In this document: one piece after another, positions 39,876 to 59,139 of the stretch | Layout of the letters: each line of letters begins with the position of its first letter | How positions within the stretch are numbered: position 1 is the stretch's first letter | DNA from: an uncultured Gammaproteobacteria bacterium | GTDB taxonomy: Bacteria; Pseudomonadota; Gammaproteobacteria; Steroidobacterales; GCA-2729495 | Assembly (NCBI GenBank): GCA_963790015.1 | Contig: CAWBMW010000017.1 | Location: 14,252 to 78,251, forward strand | Length of the DNA: 64,000 nucleotides | Reading direction: 5' to 3' | Program-made: the position numbers and the translations under genes | The notes under the pieces: generated by a model | Seen by the model: only the letters and a program-made list of their open reading frames with translations | What the model was told of the DNA's origin: nothing | Database searches by the model: none

Positions 39876-41363
39876 CTACCACTGCTGCCGCCACTCCAGG
39901 AACAGCCGCCAGTCCTCGTCCGTGGCGCCGGTGGACGGCGTGTCCCGCGACTCGAAGCCGAGGCCCGCGCGCAAGCGTGCCGACCGGCAGGCTGCGGCTG
40001 TGGACGAGCGAGGCGCCGACGTACTCCTGCTTGACCGGCGTCACGGTGTTGGCCGGGTCCGGCTCGCCCTCCCGGTTCAGGTCCCCGGCGCTGAGAGTCA
40101 GGGCCCAGCTGTGGTCGTCTGCATCGTTGAGCAGGACACCGAGGGACCAGATCTCCGCGTCGTTGTCGGCGGTGTGGCCGATGGCCCGGCCGCGGTACCG
40201 CATGCCGGTGGAGTAGATCGGGTGGTTGTAGGCGCAGTTGGGCAGCCCGGACCCGGTGATGTTGCCGCCGCAGAGCGTGTCGGCCACCTCGAGGTAGACC
40301 CGCAGGCTGCCGAGGTCCCCCGCCTGCCCCCAGGCCTCGAGGCCAATCTGGGTGAGGAACAGCGAGGGCAGGAAGTCGTCCTCGTCCTCGCCGATGCGCT
40401 GGGTGTAGACGGCCACGGGCACACCCAGGCCGCGCCGCGCTCAGGCGCATGTCGTAGCCGCCCAGCTGGTTGCCCGGCTCGTCCTCCGGGTCCACGTTGT
40501 CGCCGGCATTGTCGCGGCCGAGCAGGAGGTCGGTGAAGGTGTCGAAGTCGCAGGGGCGGCCGCTGCCGCACCACATGGCGGTGCGCGAGAGCCCGAACTC
40601 CAGGAAGCTGGCCGGGCGCACGGTCGTGCGCAGGCCGAAGTACCGCGCGTTGGGGATGTCGCGGCCGTCCTCCAGGAAGCCCCAGAGAGCCACCAGGTCC
40701 CAGTGGCCGATCCAGCGCAGCCATTTCGACTCGAAGGGTGCGGTGGAGTTGCGGTCGATCGTGAAGGCGGGAATCGGCCGGGCATTGTTCGACAGGATCA
40801 TGCTGCTCTGCCAGCCGGGGCCCCACCAGCGATCGGTCATGGCCGCGGCGACCATCCAGTTGCCGAGGGCGATGCCGGCATAGCTGCCATCCGCGCGCCA
40901 CTCGCGGTCATCCTCGGGATCGGCAGCGAACTGGCCCTGCAACCGGAGTGCCGCGCGTGCGCCGGTCCACTCGATGCCGAGCTCGACCTCGGCGGCCTCC
41001 CGCGGCGTCGCTTCGAAATCGCGCAGCGTGCGGCCTTCGGTGCCGCCGCTCAGCCGGGCGCTGGGGCGCCAGTCGCCCACCGCGCGCTCCGACCGGGCCA
41101 GGCGCACCAGGCGGGCCAGGGCGCCGGCCTCGGCGGGCGACAGGTCGACCGGCCGCGCGTCGCCGAACCGCCAGGATGTCGCCCCAGGACAGGGGCCACT
41201 GGGTGACGGGCCCCTTGATGATGCCGGCATCGGCCAGCAACTGGATGTCGTGGCGGAGTCCCGTGTTTCCCGGATCGACCCACGGACCCGCGTCGGCACG
41301 CGGGGCGGCCATGACCAGGATCAGGATCAGGAGGAGCGCCGGCGCCAGTGCAGGAATCCGCAT
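39876..41363 (-). CDS. wzi: capsule assembly protein Wzi (outer-membrane lectin/barrel); multiple frame breaks
   Basis: Signal MRIPALAPALLLILILVMAAPRADA. The pieces LRHDIQLLADAGIIKGPVTQWPLSWGDI, NNARPIPAFTIDRNSTAPFESKWLRWIGHWDL and RYFGLRTTVRPASFLEFGLSRTAMWCG are present. It ends ...LEWRQQW. Confidence 0.75.
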
Positions 41364-41450
41364 CGGCGGGGATGGTACGGAGCCGGGTCGCCCGGACGCA
41401 ACCCTCGCAGCGGCTGGCAAACGCCTGACCCATCCGGCAAGCTCCCCGCC

Positions 41451-42101
41451 ATGAACTCCCTCCAGCGACTCCTGGACAACAATCGCGCGTGGTCCGAACG
41501 GATCCGCCAGCAGGATCCCGACTTCTTCCCCAAGCTCGCGGCCCAGCAGGGGCCGGAGTATCTCTGGATCGGCTGCTCCGACAGCCGCGTGCCGGCCAAC
41601 CAGATCGTCGGCCTGCTGCCGGGCGAGGTCTTCGTGCACCGGAACGTGGCCAACGTGGTGGTGCACGCGGACCTGAACTGCCTGTCGGTGCTCCAGTTCG
41701 CCGTGGATGTCCTCAAGATCCGGCACGTCATCGTCTGCGGCCACTACGGCTGCGGCGGCGTGCGGGCCGCGTACCAGGACGAGCGGATGGGCCTCGTGGA
41801 CAACTGGCTCCGGCACGTGCAGGACGTGGCGCAGAAGCACCGCGTGGTTCTGGAGAGTGCGGGCTCGGTCGATGACCAGGTGAACCGGCTCTGCGAGCTG
41901 AACGTGCTGGAGCAGGTGGCCAACGTGTGCCAGACGACGGTGATCCAGGACGCCTGGGCCCGGGGCCAGGACGTCACGGTGCACGGCTGGATCTACGACC
42001 TGGCGGACGGGCTGATCCGGGACCTGAAGGTCAACTCGTCGAGTGCGGCGGAGTTCCAGCGGGTCTACCGGTCGGCCGAGAACGTTTACATAAGACGCTG
42101 A
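41451..42101 (+). CDS. can: beta-class carbonic anhydrase
   Basis: Near full-length similarity to E. coli Can (LWIGCSDSRVPANQI, FVHRNVANVV, LNCLSVLQFAVDVLKIRHVIVCGHYGCGGV). Confidence 0.9.
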   Translation: MNSLQRLLDNNRAWSERIRQQDPDFFPKLAAQQGPEYLWIGCSDSRVPANQIVGLLPGEVFVHRNVANVVVHADLNCLSVLQFAVDVLKIRHVIVCGHYGCGGVRAAYQDERMGLVDNWLRHVQDVAQKHRVVLESAGSVDDQVNRLCELNVLEQVANVCQTTVIQDAWARGQDVTVHGWIYDLADGLIRDLKVNSSSAAEFQRVYRSAENVYIRR

Positions 42102-42188
42102 TTCGCTTAGATTACCGATCAAGGCAGGGGACCCGACGGAACGGGCCCTGATTCATCCCGTCAAGTTCGTCCCGTCAAGGAGGACACC

Positions 42189-43022
42189 ATGACCCGAATG
42201 CTCTCCCCGTTCACCACCGTCGTCCGGACCGTCGCGCTGCTTGCTGTCGCCACGCTGGGCGCTTCCCTCACCGCCCAGGCCGCCGAAGACCTGGACCGCC
42301 GGGTACAGACCGCCACCTGGGTGCTGCAGGACCTGCAGAAGATCCCCGAACAAGCCATCCCGCCCAACCTGCTGAACAGCGCCTACGCGGTCGCCGTGCT
42401 CCCGAATGTCCTCAAGGGCGGCTTCATCCTCGGCGGCAGCTACGGCAAGGGCGTGTTGCTGGTCCGGCAGTCCGACGGCGCCTGGAGCAATCCGTCGTTC
42501 ATCACGCTCACCAACTTCGGGATAGGCTTCCAGGCCGGTGCCCAGGGCGCGGACCTGGTGCTGGTGTTCAAGACCCGTCGCGGCGTGGACAACATCGCCC
42601 GCGGCAAGTTCACGCTCGGCGGCAGCGCGTCGGCATCTGCCGGCCCCGTGGGCCGCACCGCGCTCGCTATGACCGACGGCGAGTTCAAGGCGGAGATCTA
42701 CACCTACGCCCGCAGCCGCGGCCTCTTCGCCGGCGTGTCGCTGGACGGTGGCACCATCACCATCGACCAGGAGGCCAACGCCCGCTGGTATGCCGGTGCC
42801 CAGGACACGAGCGCCAACACGATCTTCACCGATCGCAGCCTGGCGGCGCCGGCAGCCGGTCAGGAACTGGTGGCGACACTTGGCACCATGGCCCCGCAGG
42901 TGAACTGGAAGGACGCCGCCCTCGCCAGCCAGCCGCCGGCAGAGGCCCCGCCCGCCGAGACCGGCAGCAAGACCTACGCCATCGAGGACGGCGCCCAGCC
43001 TGCGCCCGAAACGAAGTTCTGA
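42189..43022 (+). CDS. SYLF (DUF500/Ysc84-like) lipid-binding domain protein, secreted
   Basis: Signal peptide plus AVAVLPNVLKGGFILGGSYGKGVLL...FGIGFQAGAQGADLVLVF...FTLGGSASASAGPVGR. Confidence 0.8.
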   Translation: MTRMLSPFTTVVRTVALLAVATLGASLTAQAAEDLDRRVQTATWVLQDLQKIPEQAIPPNLLNSAYAVAVLPNVLKGGFILGGSYGKGVLLVRQSDGAWSNPSFITLTNFGIGFQAGAQGADLVLVFKTRRGVDNIARGKFTLGGSASASAGPVGRTALAMTDGEFKAEIYTYARSRGLFAGVSLDGGTITIDQEANARWYAGAQDTSANTIFTDRSLAAPAAGQELVATLGTMAPQVNWKDAALASQPPAEAPPAETGSKTYAIEDGAQPAPETKF

Positions 43023-43027
43023 GCGTT

Positions 43028-43078
43028 GTAGGAGCGCCTTCAGGCGCGAATAGTGATCGCGCCTGAAGGCGCTCCTAC
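43028..43078. repeat. GTAG-type REP, short 51-bp hairpin between convergent genes
   Basis: GTAGGAGCGCCTTCAGGCGCGA-atagtga-TCGCGCCTGAAGGCGCTCCTAC. Confidence 0.9.
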
Positions 43079-43542
43079 AAGGCCGGTACCATTTCCGGGA
43101 GGATCGTGACGGCGGTCTTCACGGAGTTGGCGATGAAGCAGCCCCGGTGGGCCTTGTCGTGCAGCTTGCCGTGATCCTCGACTGACAGCGCCGTGCCCGG
43201 CGCGAAGCGCACCCGGGGCCGGAGCTCCACCCGCGTGACGGCCAGCCGGCCCTCCGCGTCCGGTTCCAGCCAGCCCTGCGCAGAGTCCGTGTACTCCAGC
43301 ACCACCAGCCGCCGGCGGGCCGCGATCGCCAGGAAGGTCAGCATGTGGCAGCTGGCGAGCGCCGCCACCAGGGCATCCTCCGGGTCCATCAGGTCCGCGT
43401 TCCCCTGGTAGGCCGGCGCCGACGACGCCGGCACGGTCAGCCGCCCTTCCTTCACCGTCCAGGTGTGGTCCCGGCTGAAGTGGTCGTAGTCCAGCGTGGC
43501 ACCGCTGTTCTGCCAGCGGATGGTGGCGCGATGCTCGGACAT
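43075..43542 (-). CDS. OsmC/Ohr-family peroxiredoxin-like protein
   Basis: PEDALVAALASCHMLTF...KAHRGCFIANS (two conserved Cys). The TAG stop lies inside a REP. Confidence 0.85.
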   Translation of the reverse strand: MSEHRATIRWQNSGATLDYDHFSRDHTWTVKEGRLTVPASSAPAYQGNADLMDPEDALVAALASCHMLTFLAIAARRRLVVLEYTDSAQGWLEPDAEGRLAVTRVELRPRVRFAPGTALSVEDHGKLHDKAHRGCFIANSVKTAVTILPEMVPAL

Positions 43543-43606
43543 GGGCGTTCCCGGTGTGACTGGGGTCCGCTATGATCCTGCGCCTCCACCTCCTTCGGCA
43601 ACCCGC

Positions 43607-43856
43607 ATGGAACTCAGCAACCCGCACAATCTCCGCACCCCGGCGCCCGAGCCCGCCGCGCTGCGCTACGGGATTCGCGTGACGATGCCCCCCAACGACC
43701 CGCTGCGGCGGCGTGCTGGGCAACGACTGGCAGAAGGAGCACTGGTTCGTCACCCGCGAGGAGCGCGACGAGACGCTCCGGGACATGGCCAGCCGCCACG
43801 CTTTCAGCCGAATCGGCGACACGCCCAGCATCCGGCTCGAGTCGCTCGAGCGCTAG
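43607..43856 (+). CDS. small hypothetical protein; one frame break ~43705
   Basis: MELSNPHNLRTPAPEPAALRYGIRVT... continues as ...VLGNDWQKEHWFVTREERDETLRDMASRHAFSRIGDTPSIRLESLER. Confidence 0.35.
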
Positions 43857-45941
43857 TGCGCCGCGCCGTCCTGCTGCTCGCGCCGGGCGCTGCTCGGCGC
43901 ACCGTCCGTGCCGGAGGCCGCCCCGCGCAACCTGCCGGACGAGATCATCGTCACCGCCACGCGCTATCCCACGCCCGCCCTCGAGTTCGCCGGCAACACC
44001 GCCCGCGTCGACGCCGACCGCATCGACCTGCTCAACGCCACGCACATCCACGAGGTCGGCACGCAGGTCCCCGGCGTGTGGCTCTCCCGCGGCAGCGGCC
44101 AGGAGCACCTCACCGCGATCCGCTCGCCGGTGCTCACCGGCCCCGGCTCCTGCGGCAGCTTCCTGATCCTGGAGGACGGCATCGCCGATCCGCCCCACGG
44201 GCTTCTGCAACGTCAACGAACTGTTCGAGCTGCCCTCCGAGCAGGCCACGGCGATCGAGGTGATCCGCGGTCCGGGCACGGCGCTGTACGGCTCCAACGC
44301 CGTCCACGGCACGCTCAACGTGCTGCTGCCGGAGCCGGGCGGGCGCGGGATCGCGGTGAGCGGCGAGTCGGGGCCGAATCGCTTCGTCCGCGGCAAGATC
44401 CTCGTGAGCACACCCGGCGGCAACGCCGGCACCACCGGCGACGACTCCGGCTTCATCGGCGGCCTGCTGTTCGATCACGACGGCGGCTTCCGCGACGAGT
44501 CCGACTACCGGCAGGCCAAGGGCTTCCTCAAGTACGCGACGAGCCTGGCTGCCGGCCACCTGGAACTCGGCTTCAGCGGCAACGTGCTGGACCAGGAGAC
44601 GGCCGGCTTCATCCTCGGCGAGGACAGCCTACCGGGACGAGGCCATCCGCCTCACCAACCCCAACCCGGAGTCCTACCGGGACGCCAACGCCCAGCGCCT
44701 CAGCGCCCGCTGGCAGCCGGCGGCGAACACGGCCGACAGCGGCTGGGACGTCATCGGCTTCCTCCGCCGCTCCGACATGGATTTCCTCCAGCACTTCCTG
44801 CTCGGCCAGCCCACCGAGAAGAACGGCCAGACCAGCGGCGGCGTGACGCTGCTCCGCTACTTCGCCACCGGCAACGGCCCGCGTCACCGCCGGCTTCGAC
44901 GTGGAGATCGCCAGCGGCTACCTGGAGGAGTTCCAGTCGAACCCGGAGATCGGCAACCCGCCCCGCCCGGCGGGCCTGCACTACGACTACGACGCCTGGC
45001 AGTGGCTCGCCTCGCCCTACGCCCAGGCCGAGTACCCGCTCGACGAGCGCCTGACGCTCACCGGCGGCCTGCGGCTGCGAATGGCTGCGCTACGACTACG
45101 ACAACAACATGCTCGCCGGCAACACCCGGGACGACGGCACGCCCTGCACGCCCGACTGCCTCTTCAACCGGCCCGCCGACCGCAGCGACAGCTTCACCAA
45201 CGTCGCACCCAACATCGGCATCAACTACCGGCCCGGCGGAGCACACGGCCGTCTACGCGACGCTGACCCGCGGCTTCCGCGCGCCGCAGGCAGCCGAGCT
45301 CTACCGCCTGCAGGCGGGGCAGGACGCGGCGGACCTGGACGCGGAGTCCATCGACAGCCTGGAGGTCGGCTGGCGCTGGCAGTCGCCCCACCTGCAGGTG
45401 GAGTCGGCCGCCTTCGCCATGCGCAAGGAGGACTACGTCCTGCAGGACTCCAACCGCTTCAACGTGAGCAACGGCGAGAGCGAGCACGTGGGTGTGGAGA
45501 CTCGGCGTGGACCTGCAGCAGCGACCTGGGGCTGTACGCCTCGCTGGCCGCCACCTGGGCTAAGCAGACCTACGCCTTCAGCCAGGTGGTCACCGGCGGC
45601 GAGACCATCACCGACGGCAACGACATCGACACCGCGCCCCGCACCCTCGGCAGCCTGCGCCTGGGCTGGACCGGCGATTTCCTGCTGGCCGAGGCGGAGT
45701 GGGTGCACCAGGGCGAGTACTACCTCGACCGCCCAGGAACTCCAGGACTACCCCGGCCACGACCTGCTGAACCTGCGCGCCTCCTGGGCCGTGACGCCGA
45801 ACTGGACCACGACAGCTACGCATGAACAACGTGACGGACGAGCGCTACGCCGACCGCGCCGACTTCGCCTTCGGCGATTACCGCTACTTCCCGGGCCGCG
45901 ACCGCGAGCTCTTCTTCGAGATCGCCTGGCAGTCCCCGTAG
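43856..45941 (+). CDS. TonB-dependent outer-membrane receptor; heavily frame-broken (at least 8 breaks)
   Basis: The plug region is DEIIVTATRYP...IDLLNATHIHEVGTQVPGVWLSRGSGQEHLTAIRSP and IEVIRGPGTALYGSNAVHGTLNV. Barrel segments are present, and the C-terminus is ...RYFPGRDRELFFEIAWQSP. The TAG stop lies in a REP. Confidence 0.8.
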
Positions 45942-46098
45942 GAGCGCGTTCACGCGCGACCTGCCGCGGCCCGTGGCCCGCGGCATCGCGGCCGACAATC
46001 TCTTTGGCTACCGTGAGTACACGGTGAGCGCCAAAGAGATTCTCGTCCACGCTGCCGCTCTGCCGGAGCCGTCCGGTCGCGCGTGAACGCGCTCCTAC
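45938..46098. repeat. GTAG-type REP pair (arms GTAGGAGCGCGTTCACGCGCGAC / inverse) enclosing a 115-bp core with its own inverted repeat
   Basis: Arms at 45938-45960 and 46076-46098, with an inner palindrome CAATCTCTTTGGC...GCCAAAGAGATT. It supplies the TAG stops of both convergent genes. Confidence 0.75.
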
Positions 46099-48245
46099 GG
46101 GGACGACCAGTTCGTCCAGTCCTGGCGGTTCGCGGCCACGTGGAACAGCGCCGCGATGACGCGGCGGTCGTACTGGGTGCCGGCGCCGCGGAGGAGTTCC
46201 TCCAGCGCGGCCTCGATGGACACGCCCTGCCGGTAGGCGCGCACGCTCACCAGCGCCACGAAGGCGTTGGCGACGGAGAGGATCCGGCCGGAGAGCGTCA
46301 TCTCCTGGTCCGCCGAGGCCCCGCGGGTAGCCGCTGCCGTCGAGCAGTTCCTGCTTCTGGGCGATCACGTCGAGCACGGGCCCCTCGAAGTCGAGGCCCT
46401 TCAGCAGCTCGAGGCTGTAAGTCCACGTGCCGGCGGAGCAGCTCCCGGTCGGCGGGTGTCAGCGGCTCCGTCTTCGTGAGCAGGTCGCCGGGCAGCATGA
46501 TCTTGCCGATGTTGGCAAGCGTGGCGGCGAGCCCGAGGGTCTCCCGCTCCTCCTCGGGCAGCCCGAGCTCCCGGGCCACCGCCTGGGCCACCTCCGCCAT
46601 GCGGCTGGCGTGGTGGGCGGAGTACGGGTCGTGCAGGGCCACCGCGTCCGAGAGCTTCCCCACGAGTTCACGCAGCAGGTCCGCGTGCTCCTGCTCGGCC
46701 ACCTTCAGCTCCGTGACGTCGCTCATCACCAGCAGCACGAGCTGGCGCCGCTCGCCGATGCGCTCCACGGGAATGAGGCTCACCTGGAAGCTCTTCAGCG
46801 CGCCGCCGATGGTGAGCGGCAGCACCCGGTGCAGCGGCAGGCGCTGGCGGCGCACGTCGTCGCCGAGGTCGCCGAGGAGGACCGCCGTCGCGTGACCGAA
46901 GATGCCGGAGAGCTGCCCGCCGATCATCGAGGCGATGCTGCTCCTCGCGGCGCTGGCCGTGGCCTGGTTGGTGAAGATCACGTGCTGGTCCCGGTCGACG
47001 AGGACGGTGAGCACGTCGAGGTTGTCGGTGATCGTGTGGAGCAGGTCGGTCTGACGCTGGAGCTTCGCGGCCTTCTCGCGCAGCTCGTCGGCCTGGTGGC
47101 GCGCCCGCACGCTGCTGCCGTGGCGCCAGGCGGCCACCGCCAGCGCAGCGATGGCGACCAGGAGCAGGGAGAGCGTGGCCAGCAGGAATGCGCGCCGCTC
47201 GTTGGCGCCGGCCAGCGCCTCCCCGGCGTTCACCTGCTGCGCGAGGACCCACCCCTGGCCTTCCCTGCGCTGCCCGTCGGTCGCCTGCCCGCGGATCCGC
47301 CGGCTCACCTGCAGCACGGGCGTGCCCCGGTAGTTGTCGAGGGCGGCGAACCGGTCCGGCGCCAGCACGGCCGAGACCTCGGCGAGTTCCGCATCGGCCG
47401 CCGGCCGCTCGAGGGGCACGCTGCGCCGGAGGGCATTGGCGCCCTCCCGGGTGGGCGACAGGAAGAGCACGCTGTCTTCCCGGCGGGCCAGCAGCAGCGT
47501 TTCGCTGTCCTCGGCAAAGGCCGGGCCGCGGCCGAGCAGCGGGAACAGTTCCTGGTCCGCGCTGCGCACGCCGAGGATCACGCCGGCGGGCCCGCTGCCC
47601 GGCGCACCGCCCGGCTGCAGCGCGCCGGACACCGCGCTGACCGGCACGGCGATCACCAGCATGGCCCGGTCGTCGGGTCCGAGCACCAGGTCCACCACCG
47701 TCCGGGCCGGCGTGGCCAGGGCGCGCCGCGCCACGTCGCTGTAGTGGCCAGCACCCGGGCGACGCTGCTGCCGAGGCCGGGCGTGACCACCACGGCATTG
47801 AGTTCCGCATCGAACAGGGCCAGGCCCGACGTCGCCGCGCGCGGCACGTTGGCCGGCACGCGGCCGCTCGCATCCGGCAGGTAGCCGCCCCGCTCCGCCG
47901 CCGCCAGGATCAGGTTGCGCAGGTAGGCCTGCTGGGCAGGCTCGGCCGCCGCCGCGTCGGCCTGGCGCGCCTTCACCACCTGCCAGAGGTAGAGCTGCAG
48001 CGACGCGTTGCGCGCGAGCTCCTCCAGCTCCCGGCGATCCGCCGCCAGCAGCCGCGCGACGGCATCCGCCTTGGCGTCGGCCACGAGGCCCAGCCGTGAC
48101 TCCCACTGCAGCAGGTCCCGCTGCCGTTCGCCTTCTATATAGACGTTGATGAGCAGCGCGCCGAGGCCGATCAGCCCGAGCAGCGCCAGCCACCGCGATC
48201 GCGACGGGGGAGAGACAGCGGGCGCCTGGGGACGGACGCGCTCAT
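46095..48245 (-). CDS. membrane signalling protein: TM / ~330-aa periplasmic domain / TM / PAS-like / degenerate HD-GYP domain (AN...KQE...GYP); multiple frame breaks
   Basis: TM1 WLALLGLIGLGALLINVYI and TM2 AFLLATLSLLLVAIAALAVAAW. The HD-GYP-type region is HDPYSAHHASRMAEVAQAVA...LAATLANIGKIMLPGDLL...IAQKQELLDGSGYPRGL...ILSVANAFVAL. The ATGA overlaps the BTLCP stop. Confidence 0.8.
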
Positions 48246-48943
48246 GTGGGCGGCAGGTGGATCCACCAGCGGGACTCGTTGAGCGAGAAGACCGGCACGT
48301 AGTGCACGACGTCCCGGTCCGACAGGACCGCCTGCACCTGGTTGTCCAGGATCAGGGTCTCCCGCCCGCGGGCCACCGCCAGGACGGCGTGGGGCACGCG
48401 CAGGTTGGTGTCCTGCACGACGACCAGGCGCAGCTCGTCCGCCGGATAGCCGAGCCAGAGCAGCGAGAACAGCTTGGTGATCACGTAGTCCTCGCAGTCG
48501 CCGCCGCTGCCGAGGAACTCGCGGGGGATCGCCCAGTAGTCCTCGATGCCGTAGTTGTCGATGTCGAGCACGTACTCCCGGGTGTTGGCGAAGCGGTTCA
48601 CGGCCCTGAGCTGGTCGGCCACCGGCAGGTTCCGCGCCTCGTCGAGAAAGCGGCGCCACTCGGCCAGGTGGCAGCGGTTGAACACCCGGGCCGTGCAGTC
48701 GCCCCCGCCGGGGCCGTCCCTGAGATCGTCTTTCAGGTGGCGTTCAAGGACCCGCAGCCACTGTGGGAAATCGGCAATCTGCTCCTGGGGCAGTTGCCGG
48801 TAGCCGAAGAGCTCCGCCGGAAAGGCCGCCGCGCCCGCAGACGCCAGACATAAGCACAGACTGGCCAGGATCGGCGCCGGGGCACGACCGTTCAGCGACG
48901 GGGTCGGTGGTGTGTTGATGCGGGGTGTAGTAATTTTGCGCAA
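48242..48943 (-). CDS. bacterial transglutaminase-like cysteine proteinase (BTLCP, LapG family, Peptidase_C93)
   Basis: Intact. Signal-like ILASLCLCLASAGAAAF. The catalytic Cys context is GGDCEDYVITKLFSLLWLG, with downstream VPHAVLAV and LILDNQ (His/Asp). Confidence 0.85.
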   Translation of the reverse strand: MRKITTPRINTPPTPSLNGRAPAPILASLCLCLASAGAAAFPAELFGYRQLPQEQIADFPQWLRVLERHLKDDLRDGPGGGDCTARVFNRCHLAEWRRFLDEARNLPVADQLRAVNRFANTREYVLDIDNYGIEDYWAIPREFLGSGGDCEDYVITKLFSLLWLGYPADELRLVVVQDTNLRVPHAVLAVARGRETLILDNQVQAVLSDRDVVHYVPVFSLNESRWWIHLPPT

Positions 48944-48970
48944 GGCCTCGAAACTACAACAAAAAGGCTT

Positions 48971-50287
48971 ATGGAAAGCAAGCTTATGTCCGTCCCCCGG
49001 CGCGCCACCTCGACCGCGCGCGTCGTTGCCTGTTTTGCCCTGTGCCTCGCCGGGTCAGCCCTCGGTCCCGCCCACGCCCAGGCGACCGCCGACGGCGTCC
49101 AGCAGGAATTCGACGCGGCCCTGGCGGCCATCGAACAGCAGCGCCTGCGCACGGCCCGGCAGCGTCTCACCAGCCTGCTCGCCGCCAATCCCTCCCTGAG
49201 CCGGGCGCGGCTCGAGCTGGCCCGGGTGCACTACCTCTCCCGGGACTACGCCGACGCGCGCCGCGAGGCGCAGCAGGTGCTGGACGACCCCAACACGCCG
49301 CCCGCCGTGCGCGCCACGGTGCTGGCCTTCCTCGCGCAGATCGACGCGGACGAGCGCCGCTTCGCCCCCCGGCATCTCTGGTCGCCCTCCGTCTACGCGG
49401 GCGTGATGTACGACTCCAACGTCAACATCGGCCCCGGCCGCGACGTGATCGACATCGGCGGGATCGACTTCACCGTCGCACCCGCCTCCCAGGAAACCAG
49501 CGACTGGGCCGGCGTGCTCGACGCCGGCATCGCCCACACGTACAACCCGGACGGGCGCTTCGACTGGGGCGAGACCCAGGGCGACTTCCTCTGGCAGAGC
49601 GAGCTGAACGGCTACTACCGGGGCTACTTCGACGAGACCGACTTCAACCTGGGCGTGCTCACCGCGCGCACCGGCCCCGCCTGGGTCGTGCCCGGCCGCT
49701 GGCGAGCCTACGTGGCCGTGCAGCTCGACCAGATCTTCCTCGGCGGCGACGACCTCGCGCTCTTCACCAGCCTCAACCCCGGCATCGCCTGGCAGATCGG
49801 CGACGACTGGGAAGTGGGCCTCGACGCCTTCATCACCGACCGCAACTACAGCGGCAGCGACGAGGACGGGCGGGACGGCGACTACCAGTCCGCCAGCCTC
49901 ACCGTCGGCCGCTACTTCCGGGAACGCAGCCTGCTGGTGCAGGCTGGGGCCAGCTACTACAACTTCGACGCGGACGCGGAGTTCCTGAGCTACGACGGAC
50001 CGGAGGTCTTCGCCGGCTTCATCAGCCAGGCCTGGACGAACGGCTCCGTGTTCGCCCGCGTCGGCTACCGCTGGTACGACTTCGAGGGCCTGGAGCCGCT
50101 CTTCAACGAGCCGCGGGACGACGACGAGCTGCGCGCCACGGCCGGCTTCCAGCACGACTACCGCGAGGGCTGGCTCGACCGCTGGTCCCTGGTCGGCTCC
50201 TGGACGTGGACCGACAACCAGTCGGACGTGGCGATCTACGAGTACGACCGGCACCAGGTGAGCCTGGGCCTGTCGCGAACGTTCTAG
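48971..50287 (+). CDS. DUF560 outer-membrane protein (Slam / type 11 secretion system barrel) with N-terminal TPR region
   Basis: Intact 438 aa. It has a signal peptide and a TPR-like N-terminus (ARLELARVHYLSRDYADARREAQQVL), then a beta-barrel body (SVYAGVMYDSNVNIGP...) ending ...VSLGLSRTF. Confidence 0.8.
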   Translation: MESKLMSVPRRATSTARVVACFALCLAGSALGPAHAQATADGVQQEFDAALAAIEQQRLRTARQRLTSLLAANPSLSRARLELARVHYLSRDYADARREAQQVLDDPNTPPAVRATVLAFLAQIDADERRFAPRHLWSPSVYAGVMYDSNVNIGPGRDVIDIGGIDFTVAPASQETSDWAGVLDAGIAHTYNPDGRFDWGETQGDFLWQSELNGYYRGYFDETDFNLGVLTARTGPAWVVPGRWRAYVAVQLDQIFLGGDDLALFTSLNPGIAWQIGDDWEVGLDAFITDRNYSGSDEDGRDGDYQSASLTVGRYFRERSLLVQAGASYYNFDADAEFLSYDGPEVFAGFISQAWTNGSVFARVGYRWYDFEGLEPLFNEPRDDDELRATAGFQHDYREGWLDRWSLVGSWTWTDNQSDVAIYEYDRHQVSLGLSRTF

Positions 50288-50453
50288 GCCCCGGGATTAG
50301 GTTGAATGTGAACCCGGTCGCAGATTCCCGCGGCGCGTCGTGAAGTGCCGTAGGACATGGTGTAGAAGACTTAGCTAACAACAGAAGATTTGCCGGCGAA
50401 GCGCGCGCGAGACGCGGTGCCGGGACAACAGACGAAGAGACGGGGAACACTCC

Positions 50454-51609
50454 ATGCAGAAGTTACTGGCCATCGCCGCACTTGCGTTGCTGGCGCTGCC
50501 CCTCCAGGCCAACGCCGCCACGCCGCGCTCGGACGCCGACTGCGCCCAGCTGCTCGAGCGCTGGGCCGGCGACCCCAAGGCCGCGCCGAAGAGCGAGATC
50601 AATTCGTGCAAGGACCAGCTGGCCGCCATCGCGCCGGCCGCCGGTCCGCCGCCCGAACCCGTTGCCGTAGTCGATCCCTGCTCCGGTCCGGACGCGGGCA
50701 GCTCCGTGCTCTGCTGGGGACCCTGGTCCGCGCTGGCGCCCGCCGCGGCCGCGCCGCTGGCGGCCCTCGATTTCCCGGACACGTACCTGCAGTGCGATTC
50801 CGGCGCGGCGCTGCTGGCCGAGCAGTGCGTGCCCCAGCTCGAGCCCGTCCTGCCCGTGGCCGGCTGCCAGCCCGGCACACCCTGCGGCTTCGCCACCATC
50901 GTGGACGGCAGCACCAGCAACGGCGATGCCGAAGACACGGCGTTCGGCCGCATCGACCTGGCGCCCGACGGCACCGCCTTCTCGATCGACCCGGACACCG
51001 GCGAGCCGATCGACTCTGTACCGATGACCACCGTGGTCACGCCGCGGCCCGACGACGGCTACGGCAACCTGCGTGCGAACGGGCGCCAGGGGGACGTGGG
51101 CTCCCGGCTGATCGCCCGGGTCGAGCAGGACGAGGACGGCGAGATCGTGCTGGCCGCCGACGTCTGGACCCACGGCACCCGGGAGAACGCCCGGTCGGGC
51201 TACTTCGCCTGGGGCACGGCCACGAGCCAGTCCGGCCTGGATGCGCTCAACGGCGGCAACGTCAGCCTGAACTTCACCGGACCCATGTCGGTGAACAACT
51301 CGACCACCGCCAACATGACCGTGAACTTCGGCGGCAACCCGAACTGGACCGGCACCTGGACCAACCCCGCCTGGAGCTTTGGCGCGGGCGGCACGGTGAG
51401 CGGCCCCAACCTGATCTCCCTGCCCGGCCAGTTCACCAGCAACGTGACGGGCTCGGGCAATTTCGTCCAGGGCGCGCTGGTTGGCGAAGGCGGGGTCGGC
51501 CGCCCGCGGCCTCACGCACATCATCGACGTCACGCTCGAAGGCCCGGGACGCATCAAGGACGTGGGCCTGCTGCGCGACGTGGTGGCCGGCCCGGTCATC
51601 GCGCCGTAA
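50454..51609 (+). CDS. secreted protein with C-terminal TbpB-like 8-stranded barrel (candidate Slam/T11SS cargo); one frame break ~51490
   Basis: SPase-I-type signal MQKLLAIAALALLALPLQANA with no lipobox. The C-terminal pattern is GYFAWGTATSQSGLDALNGGNVSLNFTGPM...MTVNFGGNPNWTGTW...SFGAGGTVSGPNL...VQGALVGEGG / GLTHIIDVTLEGPGRIKDVGLL. Confidence 0.6.
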
Positions 51610-51628
51610 CCTGTCAGTGAGAACCGCC

Positions 51629-52201
51629 ATGCATCTCCGCAACCTCGCCGCTGCCCTGCTGCTGATCGCCGCGGGCAGCGCCGCCCAGGCGGCCAGCCTC
51701 GCGCTGGTGCCGTCCGCAAACCCCGTGGTGGAGGACAGTACCTTCACGGTGAACCTGGTGCTGAACGCCGCCGACGCGCCGGGCATCCACCCGGGCCTCC
51801 ACAGCGGCGCCATCAGCGTGGACTTCAACAGGACGCTGCTCACCTACAACGGCTTTACGCTGGCGAACGGCCTGATCTTCTTCTCGCCCCTCGCGGTCAC
51901 CACGAACGGCACTGCACAGACCGTCACGCTCGGCTTCCAGAACGCCCCGGATGCCGGCACGGTCGGCACCTTCTCCTTCACGGCGACCGGCCCGGCCGGC
52001 AGCCTCGCGACGCTCGGCCTCGTCGATGCCGACGACCTGTTCGGCAGCTTCGTGAACAAGGCCGTCAGCGATCAACCCTACGTCCCGACCTTCACCGGCA
52101 CCCAGGTGAGCATCTCCCCCGTCCCGCTGCCCGCCGGCATCTGGCTGCTGGGCACCGCCGTCGGCGCCCTCGCCGCGCGCCGCCGCCTGAAGCCGCGGTA
52201 A
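51629..52201 (+). CDS. VPLPA-CTERM (PEP-CTERM-variant) sorting-signal protein
   Basis: Signal peptide and a beta-rich domain. The C-terminus is SPVPLPAGIWLLGTAVGALAARRRLKPR (motif, TM, basic tail). Confidence 0.8.
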   Translation: MHLRNLAAALLLIAAGSAAQAASLALVPSANPVVEDSTFTVNLVLNAADAPGIHPGLHSGAISVDFNRTLLTYNGFTLANGLIFFSPLAVTTNGTAQTVTLGFQNAPDAGTVGTFSFTATGPAGSLATLGLVDADDLFGSFVNKAVSDQPYVPTFTGTQVSISPVPLPAGIWLLGTAVGALAARRRLKPR

Positions 52202-52208
52202 TGGCGCC

Positions 52209-53420
52209 GTGACCGCACGGGCTGGCACCGCGCTGGCCCTGCTCCTCGCGAGCGTCGCTGCCTTCGGGGCACCCACGCAGGATCCCGACTGGCACATTCC
52301 CCTCGCTGCCGTAGGAGCGCCGACCGGCGCGACCGGCCAGCTACCGCAGCCCGACGCCGTTCGTCTCCGCGCAGCCCTCACCCACTACCAGCACCTCGCC
52401 GCCGCCGGCGGCTGGCCCGAACTGCCGGCCGGCACGACCCTGCAGCCCGGCCAGCGCGACGCGCGCGTCGTGGCGCTCCGGAACCGGCTCCGCCTCAGCG
52501 GCGACTTCACCGGTTTGCCGGGCACCGCCGACGCCTGGTTCTTCGACGGCAGCCTTCAGCGCGCGCTGCAGGGTTTCCAGGCGCGGCACGGGCTGCCTCC
52601 CACCGGCGTGCCGGACGAGCGCACGCTCACGGCGCTGAACGTCCCCGCCGCCGACCGGGTGCAGCAGCTGCAGGCCACGCTCACCCGCTGGGGCTGGCTG
52701 CCCCGGGACTTCGGTCCCCGCTACCTGTGGGTCAACGTGCCGGGCGGGTCGCTGGAGCTGGTCGAGGACGGCACGGTCACGCTCAGCATGCGCGTCATCG
52801 CCGGCCACCCGGACCGGCCCACGCCCAGCTTCCAGGACACGGTCACCGGGATCGTGGTGAACCCGCCCTGGTCCGTGCCCCGCACCATCGCCGTGGAGGA
52901 CCTGCTGCCCACCCAGCAGGAGGACCCGACCTTCCTCGCGCGCCTCGGCATCCGCGTGCTCGACGGCAATGGTGAGGAGCGGGACCCGGCGCGCATCGAC
53001 TGGCAGCGGGTCAGCGCCGACAACTTCCCCTACCGCCTCCGCCAGGACCCGGGCCCGCTGAACAGCCTCGGCAAGCTCAAGTTCGTGCTCTCGAATCCCT
53101 GGGACATCTTCCTGCACGACACCCCGTCCCGGCGCCTCTTCGACCTGAACAGCCGGACGCTGAGCTCCGGCTGCATCCGGCTGGAGCAGCCGGAGCAGCT
53201 GGCGGAACGGCTGGTAGGAGCGGCTTCAGCCGCGACCCTGGATCGGGTCGCGGCTGAAGCCGCTCCTACGGCCGCTCCTACGGCCGCTCCAACGACACGG
53301 ACCCTCACCATTCCTCGGCCAATCCCGATATACGTGGTTTACCTGACGGCCTGGGTCACGCCCGAGGGCGTGGTCAACTTCCGCCCTGACGTTTACGGCC
53401 GGGACGCGAGGCTGCGATAA
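52209..53420 (+). CDS. YcbB/LdtD-like L,D-transpeptidase (PG-binding plus YkuD domains) carrying two in-frame REP-derived insertions
   Basis: PG_binding region is [28 protein letters not shown]. The YkuD catalytic region is IFLHDTP...LSSGCIRLE. The ORF is intact as given. Confidence 0.85.
52311..52332. repeat. GTAG-type REP, single arm inside the Ldt ORF
   Basis: GTAGGAGCGCCGACCGGCGCGA, translated as VGAPTGAT. Confidence 0.75.
53214..53294. repeat. GTAG-type REP 56-bp hairpin plus triplicated 12-bp terminal unit, all in frame inside the Ldt ORF
   Basis: The hairpin is GTAGGAGCGGCTTCAGCCGCGAC-cctggatcgg-GTCGCGGCTGAAGCCGCTCCTAC. The tandem unit follows as GCCGCTCCTACG x2 plus GCCGCTCCAACG (53259-53294). 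Confidence 0.9.
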
Positions 53421-53469
53421 TGCGCGGCTTCACCCGTCAGTCACACCGCAAACACGTCAGGAAGACCCC

Positions 53470-54770
<1,301 letters not shown>

Positions 54771-54918: not shown

Positions 54919-55497
54919 TTGTCCGGTTGCCCGGACCCGGGCAGGCCCTATCCTGAGTCGGTGACCACTCACCCGCGCATTGACACCGCGCCGATAGCCA
55001 GCTGCATCATCGTCGTGCGCGGCGTACGGGTGCTGCTGGATCGAGATCTGGCAGACCTCTACCGCGTCCGGGCCATCGCGCTCCGGCAGCAGGTGAAGCG
55101 GAACCGGGCACGGTTCCCGGCGGACTTCATGTTCCAGCTGACGCCCAGAGAGGTCGCCGGCCTACTATCACAATCTGTGATACCTCGCCTGACAAGGCGA
55201 GGCGGATCAATGCCTTACGTGTTCACCGAACAGGGCGTGGCGATGCTCTCCAGCGTCCTTTCCAGCGACCGGGCGGTGGCGGTGAACATCGCGATCATGC
55301 GGGCGTTCGTGCAGGTGCGATCGATGCTGGCGACCAACCAGGAGCTGTCGGAGCGCCTCCTGGAGCTTGAGCGGCAGGTCGCCTCCAATGATGCATCGAT
55401 TACCACCCTGTTCGACGCCATCCGGCAACTGATGGCCATACCCCAGGCGGGCAGCCGGCCCATTGGCTTCACCGCGGATTTGGATGGCGCCGGTTGA
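54919..55497 (+). CDS. ORF6N (KilA-N-related) DNA-binding domain protein
   Basis: VRGVRVLLDRDLADLYRVRAIALRQQVKRNRARFPADFMFQLT...PYVFTEQGVAMLSSVLSSDRAVAVNIAIMRAFV. Start codon uncertain. Confidence 0.8.
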   Translation: MSGCPDPGRPYPESVTTHPRIDTAPIASCIIVVRGVRVLLDRDLADLYRVRAIALRQQVKRNRARFPADFMFQLTPREVAGLLSQSVIPRLTRRGGSMPYVFTEQGVAMLSSVLSSDRAVAVNIAIMRAFVQVRSMLATNQELSERLLELERQVASNDASITTLFDAIRQLMAIPQAGSRPIGFTADLDGAG

Positions 55498-55507
55498 CGG
55501 ACTGACG

Positions 55508-58474: not shown

Positions 58475-58522
58475 CCAACCGCTCCACCGGTCGCCAGGCG
58501 CCGGTGAGCTCAATCGTTAGGC
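58469..58522 (+). repeat. attC recombination site (54 bp)
   Basis: AGCTAAC...imperfect palindrome...GTTAGGC. Confidence 0.75.
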
Positions 58523-58525
58523 AAC

Positions 58526-58984: not shown

Positions 58985-58988
58985 CGCT

Positions 58989-59072
58989 GCCTAACCAACG
59001 GTTCCAGCCGACGCCGGCGCTTGGCGCCGATTCCCTCACCGCACTCGGCGCGGCTGAACCGAGACGTTATGT
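58989..59072 (+). repeat. attC recombination site (84 bp)
   Basis: GCCTAAC...GTTATGT. Confidence 0.65.
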
Positions 59073-59139
59073 GACAAAGCCGAGCGAAAGCGTGGATTCT
59101 GGCGTTGACCCCCTCCATGGACCGATCTAAGGTGCTGAC

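What the first reader, a model, noticed from the sequence alone, without database searches (positions are those of the whole stretch)
46095..48943. LapG-like periplasmic cysteine protease translationally coupled to a transmembrane protein with a catalytically degenerate HD-GYP domain (possible LapD analogue)
**Protease.** The BTLCP gene (48242-48943) has the LapG-family signature GGDCEDYVITKLF plus downstream His and Asp. Its stop overlaps the start of the next gene (ATGA at 48242-48245).

**Partner protein.** The downstream product has TM1, a ~330-aa periplasmic domain, TM2, a coiled-coil/PAS-like region and an HD-GYP-type domain. In that domain the HD dyad reads AN (LAATLANIGKIMLP). The HHE metal-binding triad reads KQE (IAQKQELLDGSGYPRG), while GYP is retained. 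These are substitutions read in clean frame, not artefacts of the indels elsewhere in the gene.

**Interpretation.** In the Lap paradigm, LapG is controlled by LapD, a membrane protein whose degenerate GGDEF-EAL module senses c-di-GMP and sequesters LapG in the periplasm. Here the same logic seems to be built on a degenerate HD-GYP scaffold. As far as I know that has not been described. No LapA-type giant adhesin or T1SS is in the window, so the substrate is open.
Basis: partly seen in the sequence, partly recalled or inferred. Interest (0 to 1): 0.75.

Follow-up and report, generated by a model that had tools for sequence, protein, structure and literature searches.

The report
DvhDG-type c-di-GMP-gated periplasmic protease module
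A periplasmic cysteine protease sits beside a membrane receptor whose dead HD-GYP domain probably senses c-di-GMP; this design was already shown in Desulfovibrio (DvhG/DvhD), but here it is linked to a Slam-like outer-membrane protein and a small secreted protein with a LapG-type cleavage motif, not to a giant adhesin.

Summary
A BTLCP/LapG-family protease gene (48242-48943, minus strand) overlaps by ATGA a gene (46095-48245) for a TM / periplasmic domain / TM / PAS / HD-GYP protein. Its HD, HH and a later Asp metal ligands read AN, KQ and N, while GYP is kept. The gene carries five single-base indels, but these are assembly errors found across the window. None of the 120 best homologues (51-96% identity) has an HD or HHE motif, and the 24 aligned all read AN/KQ/N.

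The claim that this is undescribed is wrong. DvhD/DvhG of Desulfovibrio vulgaris (PNAS 2024; Nat Commun 2026) has the same architecture and logic. DvhD crystal structures are the best sequence and fold matches for all three soluble domains.

What differs is the context. In 78 of 80 related loci (uncultured Gammaproteobacteria) the pair is conserved. It lies next to a divergent TPR + beta-barrel outer-membrane protein (distant Slam/T11SS type), with no T1SS or giant adhesin. The gene after that protein encodes a secreted protein carrying WG[PR]W..L[AS]PAA[G/A] in 60 of 62 loci, which matches the LapG/DvhG cleavage consensus [T/A/P]AAG. I propose it as the substrate; this is inferred, not shown.

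Verdict: a new variant of a known kind, of moderate interest.

The parts
48242..48943 (-). BTLCP / LapG-DvhG-family periplasmic cysteine protease (233 aa from the TTG start). The signal-peptide-like N-terminus is at 48812-48943. The Cys motif GGDCEDY is at 48467-48505, His at 48374-48400 and Asp at 48335-48355.
   Evidence: PF06035 scores 69.8 bits. LapG structures 4fgo and 4u65 match at 1.7e-19 and 1.4e-16 with the triad aligned. GxCEDY is present in 79 of 79 orthologues, and HAVLA and LDNQ are at least 90% conserved. The NCBIfam LapG equivalog scores 85 bits, below its cutoff of 320.
46095..48245 (-). DvhD-type receptor gene (about 715 aa), broken in this assembly by five single-base indels near 48214, 48188, 47761, 46418 and 46312.
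   Evidence: Three-frame translation. Alignment to the 98.5% identical intact contig L085. Pfam hits to HD_5, HD and PAS_4. Best PDB sequence and fold hits are the DvhD structures.
47192..48135 (-). Periplasmic sensor or output domain between TM1 (48136-48192) and TM2 (47126-47191). The predicted fold is dCache-like.
   Evidence: The AF2 model of P0001 (mean pLDDT 78.3) shows a long helix followed by two alpha/beta lobes. Foldseek hit to the DvhD periplasmic domain 9rc2: E 1.8e-6, target TM-score 0.73, 14% identity. No Pfam hit.
46703..47044 (-). Cytoplasmic PAS domain.
   Evidence: PF08448 PAS_4 scores 33 bits at residues 409-516. It aligns to the PAS domain of DvhD 9rc0.
46158..46654 (-). 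Degenerate HD-GYP domain. HD reads AN (46490-46531), HH reads KQ with E and GYP kept (46315-46365), and VAD reads VAN (46230-46283).
   Evidence: HD_5 scores 137 bits. The substitutions are invariant in 24 aligned relatives, and none of 120 homologues has HD or HHE. Of the eight c-di-GMP contact residues of DvhD, five are identical, two are conservative and one (E668) reads Ala.
48971..50287 (+). Divergently transcribed outer-membrane protein with an N-terminal TPR region and a C-terminal beta-barrel. It is a distant Slam / type 11 secretion type (also hits DUF2860).
   Evidence: Pfam: DUF2860 44.9 bits, SlipAM 30.3 bits (cutoff 22), TPR_16, TPR_19, and TPR_Slam below cutoff. Among ten orthologues, SlipAM hits eight at E below 0.01 and exceeds the cutoff in four; TPR_Slam hits all ten below cutoff. 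It is conserved next to the BTLCP gene in nearly every locus whose contig reaches that far; L070 lacks both.
50454..51606 (+). Candidate BTLCP substrate ('P380', about 384 aa when intact; one frameshift near 51495-51505). It has a signal peptide, a Cys-rich helical hairpin, the motif SVLCWGPWSALAPAAAAP at 50703-50756, and a beta-rich C-terminal domain.
   Evidence: WG[PRS]W followed within a few residues by PAA is found in the gene after the OMP gene in 60 of 62 loci; the next residue is G in 30 and A in 20 of 57 unique sequences. Remote family members start with a signal peptide followed directly by DSVxxWGxW..L.[P/T]AAG. The consensus [T/A/P]AAG for LapG and DvhG is from PMC13090378. No Pfam or NCBIfam family matches.
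51629..52201 (+). Small secreted protein with a VPLPA-CTERM (PEP-CTERM-type) sorting signal at 52121-52198.
   Evidence: The orthologue in L001 hits TIGR03370 VPLPA-CTERM at 32.4 bits (cutoff 25.35). It is conserved in the module in relatives of about 50% identity or more. The Thiogranum locus I read (L049) has a different PEP-CTERM-like protein at that position.
52209..53420 (+). LdtD/YcbB-like L,D-transpeptidase with a peptidoglycan-binding domain; the last gene of the conserved module.
   Evidence: Pfam YkuD 72.8 bits and PG_binding_1 50.1 bits; NCBIfam PRK10594 243 bits, below its cutoff. It is conserved in the closer relatives only.

Best explanation
The pair is a gammaproteobacterial version of the DvhG/DvhD system.

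**Proposed mechanism.**
1. The receptor is an inner-membrane protein with its N-terminus in the cytoplasm, a periplasmic dCache-like domain, and a cytoplasmic PAS plus HD-GYP module. It probably acts as a dimer, as DvhD does; I did not test this.
2. The HD-GYP domain has lost five of its metal ligands, so it cannot hydrolyse c-di-GMP. It keeps most of the nucleotide-contact residues and therefore binds c-di-GMP.
3. Binding is relayed through the stalk helices, the PAS domain and the transmembrane helices to the periplasmic domain.
4. At high c-di-GMP the periplasmic domain holds or inhibits the secreted, calcium-dependent BTLCP protease.
5. At low c-di-GMP the protease is free. It cleaves between the two alanines of the conserved ...WG(P/R)W..L(A/S)P-A|A-(G/A)... 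motif near the N-terminus of the secreted protein encoded next to the TPR/beta-barrel outer-membrane protein.
6. Cleavage removes the N-terminal periplasmic piece. This releases, or otherwise changes the state of, a cargo handled by that Slam-like outer-membrane protein. This would be the equivalent of LapA release from LapE.

**Shown here.** Domain architecture, loss of catalytic ligands, homology to DvhD and LapG, conserved gene order, and the conserved motif.

**Inferred.** c-di-GMP binding, the direction of signalling, the identity of the substrate, and the consequence of cleavage.
For: **The receptor is a DvhD relative.**
- It matches DvhD PAS/HD-GYP (9rc0, 2.6e-36, 129 bits) better than the catalytic HD-GYPs 4mcw and 5z7c (about 85 bits).
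- In the AF2 model (pLDDT 78.3), DvhD structures are the top Foldseek hits for the PAS/HD-GYP region (9rc0, E 1.4e-16), the HD-GYP domain (9rbz, target TM-score 0.78) and the periplasmic domain (9rc2, target TM-score 0.73).
- DvhD binds c-di-GMP at about 0.3 uM, is catalytically inactive and controls DvhG.

**The nucleotide site is kept while the metal site is lost.**
- DvhD contact residues map as Y523 to Y, L577 to L, K582 to R, Y621 to Y, M646 to L, R650 to R and Y652 to Y.
- In the family, L595, Y639, L664 and R668 are invariant. Position 670 is always aromatic and position 541 is aromatic in 22 of 24 sequences.
- AN, KQ and N are invariant. The VAD to VAN change is shared with DvhD.

**The protease looks active.**
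- The Cys-His-Asp triad and the D-C-E calcium motif are present.

**The genes are linked.**
- The BTLCP gene lies directly upstream of the receptor gene in 78 of 80 loci from 80 species-level genomes.
- The TPR/barrel outer-membrane protein gene is next to it in nearly every locus whose contig reaches that far, while outer flanks differ.

**The candidate substrate carries a matching site.**
- 60 of 62 loci carry WG[PRS]W followed by PAA in the gene after the OMP gene.
- This includes forms whose C-terminal parts are very different.
- The motif matches the experimentally defined [T/A/P]AAG site with an Ala-Ala scissile bond.
- The protein family is tiny: 102 clusters among 1.84 billion representatives.
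Against: - No biochemistry exists for this clade.
- The DvhD 'bridging' c-di-GMP site is not conserved (K520 to H, R569 to D/E; only P567 is kept). The guanine-specifying E668 aligns to Ala. Ligand stoichiometry or specificity may therefore differ.
- In the short-form substrates only about 15-20 residues precede the motif. That is hard to reconcile with a folded retention module like LapA's, so the outcome of cleavage may be maturation rather than release.
- The substrate fold could not be predicted (pLDDT 40.7), so its status as T11SS-type cargo is untested.
- The OMP match to the Slam family is weak (22-31 bits).
- PAA is not rare in Ala/Pro-rich proteins of high-GC genomes, although its fixed register after WGxW is.
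- One relative (L070) lacks the BTLCP and OMP genes and lies near a 1864-aa repeat protein.
- A LapA-type substrate elsewhere in the genome cannot be excluded from 64 kb.
Confidence: 0.6

Rival explanations
1. The receptor and protease work as proposed, but the real substrate is a LapA/DvhA-type giant T1SS adhesin encoded elsewhere in the genome. The neighbouring OMP, secreted protein, PEP-CTERM protein and transpeptidase genes are unrelated neighbours.
For: Every characterised LapG/DvhG system acts on large adhesins. Published DvhDG neighbourhoods are dominated by T1SS genes (140 mentions of 'type I secretion' and 52 of TolC). One relative (L070) lies beside a 1864-aa repeat protein. Only 64 kb of this genome is visible.
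Against: The OMP gene stays beside the BTLCP gene across relatives down to about 37-45% identity while outer flanks change. The next gene keeps a motif matching the protease's known specificity in 60 of 62 loci. No T1SS gene was called within 10 kb in the three annotated loci.
Confidence: 0.15
2. The partner protein is an outside-in sensor. Its periplasmic dCache domain detects a ligand. The dead HD-GYP domain signals by protein-protein contact through its retained GYP motif, for example to a GGDEF or PilZ protein, and does not act as a c-di-GMP receptor that gates the protease.
For: dCache domains are usually ligand sensors. GYP is invariant. From my own recollection, not checked here: GYP-dependent binding of GGDEF proteins is reported for RpfG, and the inactive YN-GYP protein PA2572 has regulatory roles.
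Against: The closest characterised relative works inside-out. The c-di-GMP contact residues are conserved rather than only GYP. The tight, often overlapping operon with a periplasmic protease in 78 of 80 loci points to a periplasmic output.
Confidence: 0.1
3. The gene is a decaying pseudogene in this organism, so the pair is non-functional here.
For: There are five frameshifting indels in 2.15 kb.
Against: Frameshifts also hit icd, wzi, the TonB-dependent receptor and the 388-aa ORF in the same 17 kb. That is the signature of assembly error. A 98.5% identical contig has the intact ORF. All substitutions relative to relatives are conservative.
Confidence: 0.04
4. It is an ordinary HD-GYP phosphodiesterase, and AN and KQE are sequencing artefacts.
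For: The window has many errors.
Against: The motifs lie in clean frame. None of 120 homologues from independent assemblies has HD or HHE, and AN, KQ and N are invariant in the 24 aligned.
Confidence: 0.01

Closest known systems
DvhD/DvhG (DVU1020/DVU1019, also BfsD/BfsG) of Desulfovibrio (Nitratidesulfovibrio) vulgaris Hildenborough
   Same: - A BTLCP gene is followed by a gene for a TM / dCache / TM / PAS / HD-GYP protein that has lost the HD and HH metal ligands but kept GYP.
- The VAD to VAN change is shared.
- Most canonical c-di-GMP contact residues are conserved.
- DvhD structures are the best sequence and fold matches for all three soluble domains.
- Most DvhG orthologues also have signal peptides.
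   Different: - The replacement residues differ: AN and KQ here, SQ and MN in DvhD.
- The bridging c-di-GMP site is not conserved.
- Identity is only about 37% in the HD-GYP domain and 14% in the periplasmic domain.
- The lineage is uncultured Gammaproteobacteria, against Desulfovibrionales and some Alphaproteobacteria in the parts of the published lists I read.
- There is no T1SS or giant adhesin operon. Instead there is a Slam-like OMP, a small secreted protein with a PAA(G) motif, a PEP-CTERM-type protein and an L,D-transpeptidase.
LapD/LapG of Pseudomonas fluorescens and relatives
   Same: - A periplasmic calcium-dependent BTLCP protease with a Cys-His-Asp triad.
- The proposed inside-out control by a degenerate c-di-GMP-metabolising domain.
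- A di-alanine cleavage motif.
   Different: - The receptor here has no HAMP, GGDEF or EAL domains and no LapD/MoxY periplasmic domain.
- The BTLCP scores far below the LapG equivalog cutoff (85 against 320 bits).
- No LapA/LapEBC genes are present.
LapG control of CdrA/CdrB in Pseudomonas aeruginosa (PMC4694147)
   Same: It is a precedent for a BTLCP acting on a surface protein exported by something other than a T1SS (the CdrA/CdrB pair), as proposed here for a different outer-membrane transporter.
   Different: CdrA is a large adhesin and the regulator is canonical LapD. Here the transporter is Slam-like and the candidate substrate is a protein of about 180-400 aa with no recognised adhesin domain.
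Slam / type 11 secretion system outer-membrane proteins (DUF560, PF04575)
   Same: An N-terminal TPR region plus a C-terminal beta-barrel, with an adjacent gene for a secreted beta-rich protein.
   Different: The Pfam scores are marginal. The candidate cargo is not a lipoprotein and hits no known cargo family. I found no paper that links T11SS to BTLCP or c-di-GMP.
Other degenerate HD-GYP proteins (Bd1817 of Bdellovibrio; PA2572 YN-GYP of P. aeruginosa)
   Same: HD-GYP domains with lost catalytic residues. Bd1817 (3tm8) is a weak PDB hit.
   Different: Their domain context differs (from my own recollection, not tested here): they are not reported as membrane proteins with a periplasmic domain and are not paired with a BTLCP.

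Membership tests
DvhD-type c-di-GMP receptor | Architecture TM / periplasmic dCache / TM / PAS / HD-GYP | tested here: met
   Pfam PAS_4 and HD_5. The AF2 model gives the topology. Foldseek finds DvhD dCache 9rc2 (target TM-score 0.73) and DvhD PAS/HD-GYP 9rc0 (E 1.4e-16) as best matches.
DvhD-type c-di-GMP receptor | HD and HH metal-ligand motifs lost while GYP is retained | tested here: met
   AN, KQ and VAN are present, and GYP is kept. They are invariant in 24 relatives. None of 120 homologues has HD or HHE.
DvhD-type c-di-GMP receptor | Canonical c-di-GMP contact residues (Y523, L577, K582, Y621, M646, R650, Y652, E668) | tested here: met
   Five are identical, two are conservative (K to R, M to L) and one is lost (E668 to A). 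The family conserves them.
DvhD-type c-di-GMP receptor | Bridging c-di-GMP site (K520, P567, R569) | tested here: not met
   Only the proline is kept; K is replaced by H and R by D/E/Q. The authors themselves are unsure whether this site is general.
DvhD-type c-di-GMP receptor | Binds c-di-GMP, does not hydrolyse it, and controls the BTLCP | not testable with these tools
   This needs ITC or DRaCALA, a phosphodiesterase assay and a reconstitution experiment.
DvhDG/Lap-type adhesin system | The receptor gene is adjacent to a BTLCP gene | tested here: met
   True in 78 of 80 loci. The window and L001 share the ATGA overlap.
DvhDG/Lap-type adhesin system | Operon or neighbourhood with a T1SS (ABC, MFP, TolC) and a giant adhesin carrying an N-terminal retention module | tested here: not met
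   No such genes were called within 10 kb in L001-L004. None was found among the window ORFs I scanned. A location elsewhere in the genome was not testable.
BTLCP / LapG family (Peptidase C93) | PF06035 domain with a Cys-His-Asp triad and the D-C-E calcium motif | tested here: met
   69.8 bits. The triad aligns to LapG structures. GxCEDY is present in 79 of 79 orthologues. DvhG D316, C317 and E318 correspond to D-C-E.
BTLCP / LapG family (Peptidase C93) | NCBIfam LapG equivalog score | tested here: not met
   85 bits against a cutoff of 320. It is a family member but not a LapG orthologue.
BTLCP / LapG family (Peptidase C93) | Export to the periplasm (signal peptide) | tested here: inconclusive
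   The N-terminus MRKITTPRINTPP...ILASLCLCLASAGAAA/FPAE looks like a Sec signal and is conserved in L001. No signal-peptide predictor was available.
BTLCP / LapG family (Peptidase C93) | A substrate with a [T/A/P]AAG site in a periplasm-accessible N-terminal segment | tested here: inconclusive
   A candidate was found with PAA(G/A) in 60 of 62 loci and TAAG or PAAG in remote members. Cleavage itself was not testable.
LapD | HAMP, degenerate GGDEF and EAL cytoplasmic module plus a LapD/MoxY periplasmic domain | tested here: not met
   There are no GGDEF, EAL or HAMP hits.
Catalytic HD-GYP phosphodiesterase | A complete set of metal ligands (H, HD, H, HH, D) | tested here: not met
   Only the first His, the fourth His and the Glu remain.
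Slam / T11SS outer-membrane protein | PF04575 (DUF560/SlipAM) barrel preceded by TPR repeats | tested here: inconclusive
   SlipAM scores 30.3 bits in the window (cutoff 22). Four of ten orthologues exceed the cutoff. TPR_Slam is below its cutoff in all. DUF2860 scores higher in several.
Slam / T11SS outer-membrane protein | An adjacent cargo with a C-terminal 8-stranded barrel domain | tested here: inconclusive
   The AF2 model is unusable (pLDDT 40.7). There are no Foldseek, PDB or Pfam matches. The only hint is a C-terminal sequence pattern that looks to me (from memory) like the end of known T11SS cargo barrels.

The most novel reading that the evidence does not exclude
Lap/Dvh-type inside-out proteolytic control has been moved onto a different export route. 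A DvhD-like c-di-GMP receptor gates a BTLCP that clips the N-terminal WGxW..L.PA|AG segment off a new family of small secreted proteins. These proteins are handled by a Slam/T11SS-like outer-membrane protein. The second messenger would then control surface display or release of T11SS-type cargo rather than of a giant T1SS adhesin. In the window's clade this may act together with a PEP-CTERM-type protein and an L,D-transpeptidase.
Probability: 0.4. Interest if true: 0.7.

Novelty: new variant of a known kind. Interest (0 to 1): 0.55.

Why it matters
If the model holds, three things follow.
- The DvhD solution (a dead HD-GYP domain acting as a c-di-GMP receptor for a periplasmic protease) would not be confined to sulfate reducers. 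At least 95 species-level genomes of uncultured, mostly sulfur-cycle or wastewater-type Gammaproteobacteria carry a relative.
- BTLCP proteases would have substrates other than giant adhesins.
- It would give the first regulatory input, and the first environmental cargo family, for the poorly understood non-host-associated Slam/T11SS-like proteins.

The invariant WGxW..L.PAA(G) motif makes the hypothesis directly testable with the published SUMO-GFP cleavage reporter.

Tried and rejected
- **Fold of the candidate substrate.** The AF2 model from a 14-sequence alignment had a mean pLDDT of only 40.7. Foldseek against the PDB gave nothing below E 0.03. A profile search of PDB sequences gave nothing meaningful. 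The T11SS-cargo idea therefore stays untested.
- **OMP against PDB sequences.** No relatives were found.
- **L,D-transpeptidase as a second substrate.** Its N-terminus has a conserved DPDWHI motif sometimes followed by AA. The di-alanine is not conserved across loci, so I rejected this.
- **Source record of the window.** The frameshifted ORF product P0129 is in the protein database, but its contig was not on record.
- **Context of remote substrate homologues.** P0337 was not on record. The P0321 contig starts at the gene, so the upstream side is missing.
- **Galperin and Chou 2022 HD-GYP census.** The paper is not held.
- **Literature linking BTLCP/LapG with Slam/T11SS.** No paper holds both sets of terms in a relevant way, and the T11SS cargo survey does not mention c-di-GMP, HD-GYP, PEP-CTERM or transpeptidases.
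- **Exosortase/PEP-CTERM system in the window.** I looked around 6-21 kb and found large TPR and AgmX/PglI-tail proteins instead.
- **Pseudogene and sequencing-artefact readings.** Both were rejected.

Full report
**1. What is in the sequence**

On the minus strand, ORF 48242-48943 encodes a 233-aa protein. It hits Pfam PF06035 (Peptidase_C93, BTLCP) at 69.8 bits. Its best solved relatives are the LapG proteases of Legionella (4fgo, 1.7e-19) and P. fluorescens (4u65).

The motif GGDCEDYVITKLF (48467-48505) and the downstream PHAVL and LILDN align with the LapG Cys-His-Asp triad. The Cys is flanked by Asp and Glu, like the calcium-site residues D316 and E318 of DvhG.

Against the NCBIfam LapG equivalog it scores only 85 bits, with a cutoff of 320. 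It is therefore a family member, not a LapG orthologue. The N-terminus looks like a Sec signal peptide, but I had no predictor to confirm this.

The stop codon overlaps the next start codon as ATGA at 48242-48245.

The downstream gene (46095-48245) is spread over three reading frames. A 98.5% identical public contig (L085) carries an intact 715-aa ORF (P0001). Relative to it the window has exactly five single-base indels.

The same kind of frameshift breaks icd, wzi, the TonB-dependent receptor gene and the neighbouring 388-aa ORF. These are assembly errors, not gene decay.

The stitched protein has this order of parts:
- a positively charged N-terminus;
- TM1;
- a periplasmic region of about 315-330 aa with no Pfam hit;
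- TM2;
- PAS_4 (33 bits);
- HD_5 (137 bits).

**2. The HD-GYP domain is truly degenerate**

Three ligand motifs are changed:
- HD reads AN (LAATLANIGK).
- HH reads KQ (IAQKQELLDGSGYP).
- The last Asp ligand reads Asn (SVANAF).

The first and fourth His, the Glu and GYP remain.

A homology search returned 222 proteins at E below 1e-10. Among the 120 best (51-96% identity) none has HDxGK or HHE. In 24 aligned sequences A577, N578, K630, Q631 and N659 are invariant. Resequencing would not restore a phosphodiesterase.

**3. It has already been described in principle**

[quoted passage not shown] It binds c-di-GMP at 322 nM and confers c-di-GMP control over the BTLCP DvhG (PMC10990149).

The 2026 structural paper adds the following (PMC13090378):
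- the periplasmic domain is a dCache fold;
- HD is replaced by SQ and HH by MN;
- no metal is bound and no hydrolysis occurs;
- c-di-GMP binding splays the stalk helices.

The window's protein is the same kind of protein.
- Its best PDB sequence hits are DvhD PAS/HD-GYP (9rc0, 2.6e-36) and DvhD HD-GYP (9rbz, 1.2e-34). These are well ahead of the catalytic HD-GYPs at about 85 bits.
- An AF2 model of P0001 (mean pLDDT 78.3) finds 9rc0 and 9rbz as its top Foldseek hits.
- It also finds the DvhD periplasmic domain 9rc2 (E 1.8e-6, target TM-score 0.73), the only periplasmic sensor-domain structure among the 50 listed hits.

I recovered the DvhD numbering from the alignment and mapped the contact residues.
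- Five of the eight canonical c-di-GMP contacts are identical and two are conservative.
- E668 aligns to Ala.
- Of the three bridging-site residues only the proline is kept.
- The VAD to VAN change is shared with DvhD.

**4. Conservation and context**

A scan of one genome per species found 95 relatives, of which 80 loci were fetched. All but one carry gammaproteobacterial or unresolved Pseudomonadota labels, and nearly all are uncultured: Chromatiales or Chromatiaceae MAGs, Thiogranum, Thiohalobacter and 'PRO' bins. The exception is labelled Sulfurirhabdus.

I built HMMs from three annotated loci and searched all 80.
- The BTLCP gene lies directly upstream of the receptor gene in 78 of 80 loci. 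One exception is a truncated contig. The other, L070, lacks the BTLCP gene and sits near a 1864-aa repeat protein.
- Divergent from the BTLCP gene, in nearly every locus whose contig reaches that far, is a gene for a protein of about 430 aa with N-terminal TPR repeats and a C-terminal beta-barrel.
- The outer flanks differ between lineages.

The barrel protein hits DUF2860 and SlipAM/DUF560, the Slam or type 11 secretion outer-membrane family. SlipAM scores 30.3 bits in the window. It exceeds its cutoff in four of ten orthologues tested. TPR_Slam is below its cutoff in all ten.

In relatives of about 50% identity or more, three further genes follow:
- a secreted protein of about 384 aa with no known family;
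- a protein of about 196 aa with a VPLPA-CTERM sorting signal (TIGR03370, 32.4 bits);
- an LdtD/YcbB-like L,D-transpeptidase.

No T1SS or giant adhesin gene was called within 10 kb in the annotated loci. By contrast, the published DvhDG neighbourhood table is dominated by T1SS and TolC genes. It contains no PEP-CTERM or transpeptidase entries. Its taxa are Desulfovibrionales, Desulfuromonas and some Alphaproteobacteria.

**5. A candidate substrate**

The gene immediately after the OMP gene carries WG[P/R/S]W followed within a few residues by PAA in 60 of 62 loci. The next residue is G in 30 and A in 20 of 57 unique sequences.

The motif occurs in two forms.
- **Long form** (the window's clade). 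A signal peptide is followed by a Cys-rich helical hairpin, then ...DPC..SVLCWGPW..LAPAA.
- **Short form** (Thiogranum, Thiohalobacter and remote members). DSVYxWGRWAVL(A/S)PAAG follows the signal peptide directly, although the rest of the protein differs.

One remote member reads TAAG.

The LapG/DvhG recognition consensus is [T/A/P]AAG, with the scissile bond between the alanines. Di-arginine substitution blocks cleavage.

The family is very small, with 102 clusters at E of 1e-3 or below among 1.84 billion representatives. In the loci I hold it always sits beside the OMP/BTLCP/receptor genes.

This is the basis for proposing it as the protease's substrate. The proposal is an inference. The fold of this protein could not be predicted.

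**6. Mechanism proposed**

By homology with DvhD, c-di-GMP binds the metal-free HD-GYP pocket. The signal passes through the stalk, PAS and transmembrane helices to the dCache-like domain, which restrains the BTLCP. At low c-di-GMP the BTLCP cleaves the PA|A(G) site.

By analogy with LapA/LapE, and with CdrA/CdrB for a non-T1SS case, cleavage would remove a periplasmic N-terminal piece. That would release or re-route a cargo of the Slam-like outer-membrane protein.

Weak points:
- The short-form substrates have only about 15-20 residues upstream of the site, so maturation rather than release is possible.
- The bridging c-di-GMP site and the guanine-specifying Glu are not conserved.
- The OMP assignment is marginal.
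- A distal adhesin substrate cannot be excluded.

**7. Verdict**

The instance is a new variant of that kind. It occupies a different bacterial class and a different conserved gene neighbourhood, and it has a plausible new substrate family.

My confidence that the pair is a DvhDG-type c-di-GMP-gated protease module is about 0.7. My confidence that the neighbouring secreted protein is the substrate is about 0.5-0.55.

Noticed in passing
window 21962-22054 (-): A c-di-GMP-I-GGC riboswitch aptamer (RF03167, 71.1 bits, gathering score 59) lies upstream of minus-strand ORFs for very large TPR proteins (16005-20719, probably one frameshifted gene). An AgmX/PglI-tail protein is encoded at 11727-13055. 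From memory, this resembles a Glt/Nfs-like envelope machine under c-di-GMP control; that resemblance was not tested.
   Followed up: partly
window 39879-54767: Single-base frameshifts are spread over many genes: icd 53470-54767, wzi 39879-41315, the TonB-dependent receptor 43887-45935, a small 82-aa ORF around 43607-43853, and the 388-aa ORF 50454-51620. The protein database holds the exact frameshifted product of 50454-51620 (P0129, from a 163-kb NCBI/ENA contig). The window therefore comes from an error-rich public MAG.
   Followed up: yes
L070 1840-11890: In one relative the DvhD-like gene keeps the AN and KQE motifs, but no BTLCP or OMP gene lies beside it. Upstream are a 494-aa coiled-coil protein and a 1864-aa repeat-rich, adhesin-like protein.
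   Followed up: no
window 55215-56474 (-) and 58000-62000: A phage-type integrase gene is followed by a stretch with GC 0.58, against about 0.70 elsewhere. This may be an integrated element. L001 also has an integrase and a toxin-antitoxin pair near the module.
   Followed up: no
window 43887-45935 (+): A TonB-dependent receptor lies directly downstream of the receptor gene in the window and in L001, but not in L002-L004. The Slam-like OMP next to a TonB receptor is therefore not a conserved pairing here.
   Followed up: partly
window 48650-48705 (-), BTLCP residues ~98-112: The BTLCPs of this clade share an extra conserved Cys pair (G-D-C.....N-R-C-H) upstream of the region that matches the Pfam BTLCP model. 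It may form a disulfide. I did not compare this region with LapG or DvhG.
   Followed up: no
window 28393-30195 (-): A 600-aa ORF has a weak hit to the hydrazine synthase alpha middle domain (PF18582, 31 bits). Neighbouring long ORFs between 27 and 35 kb have no Pfam hits.
   Followed up: no
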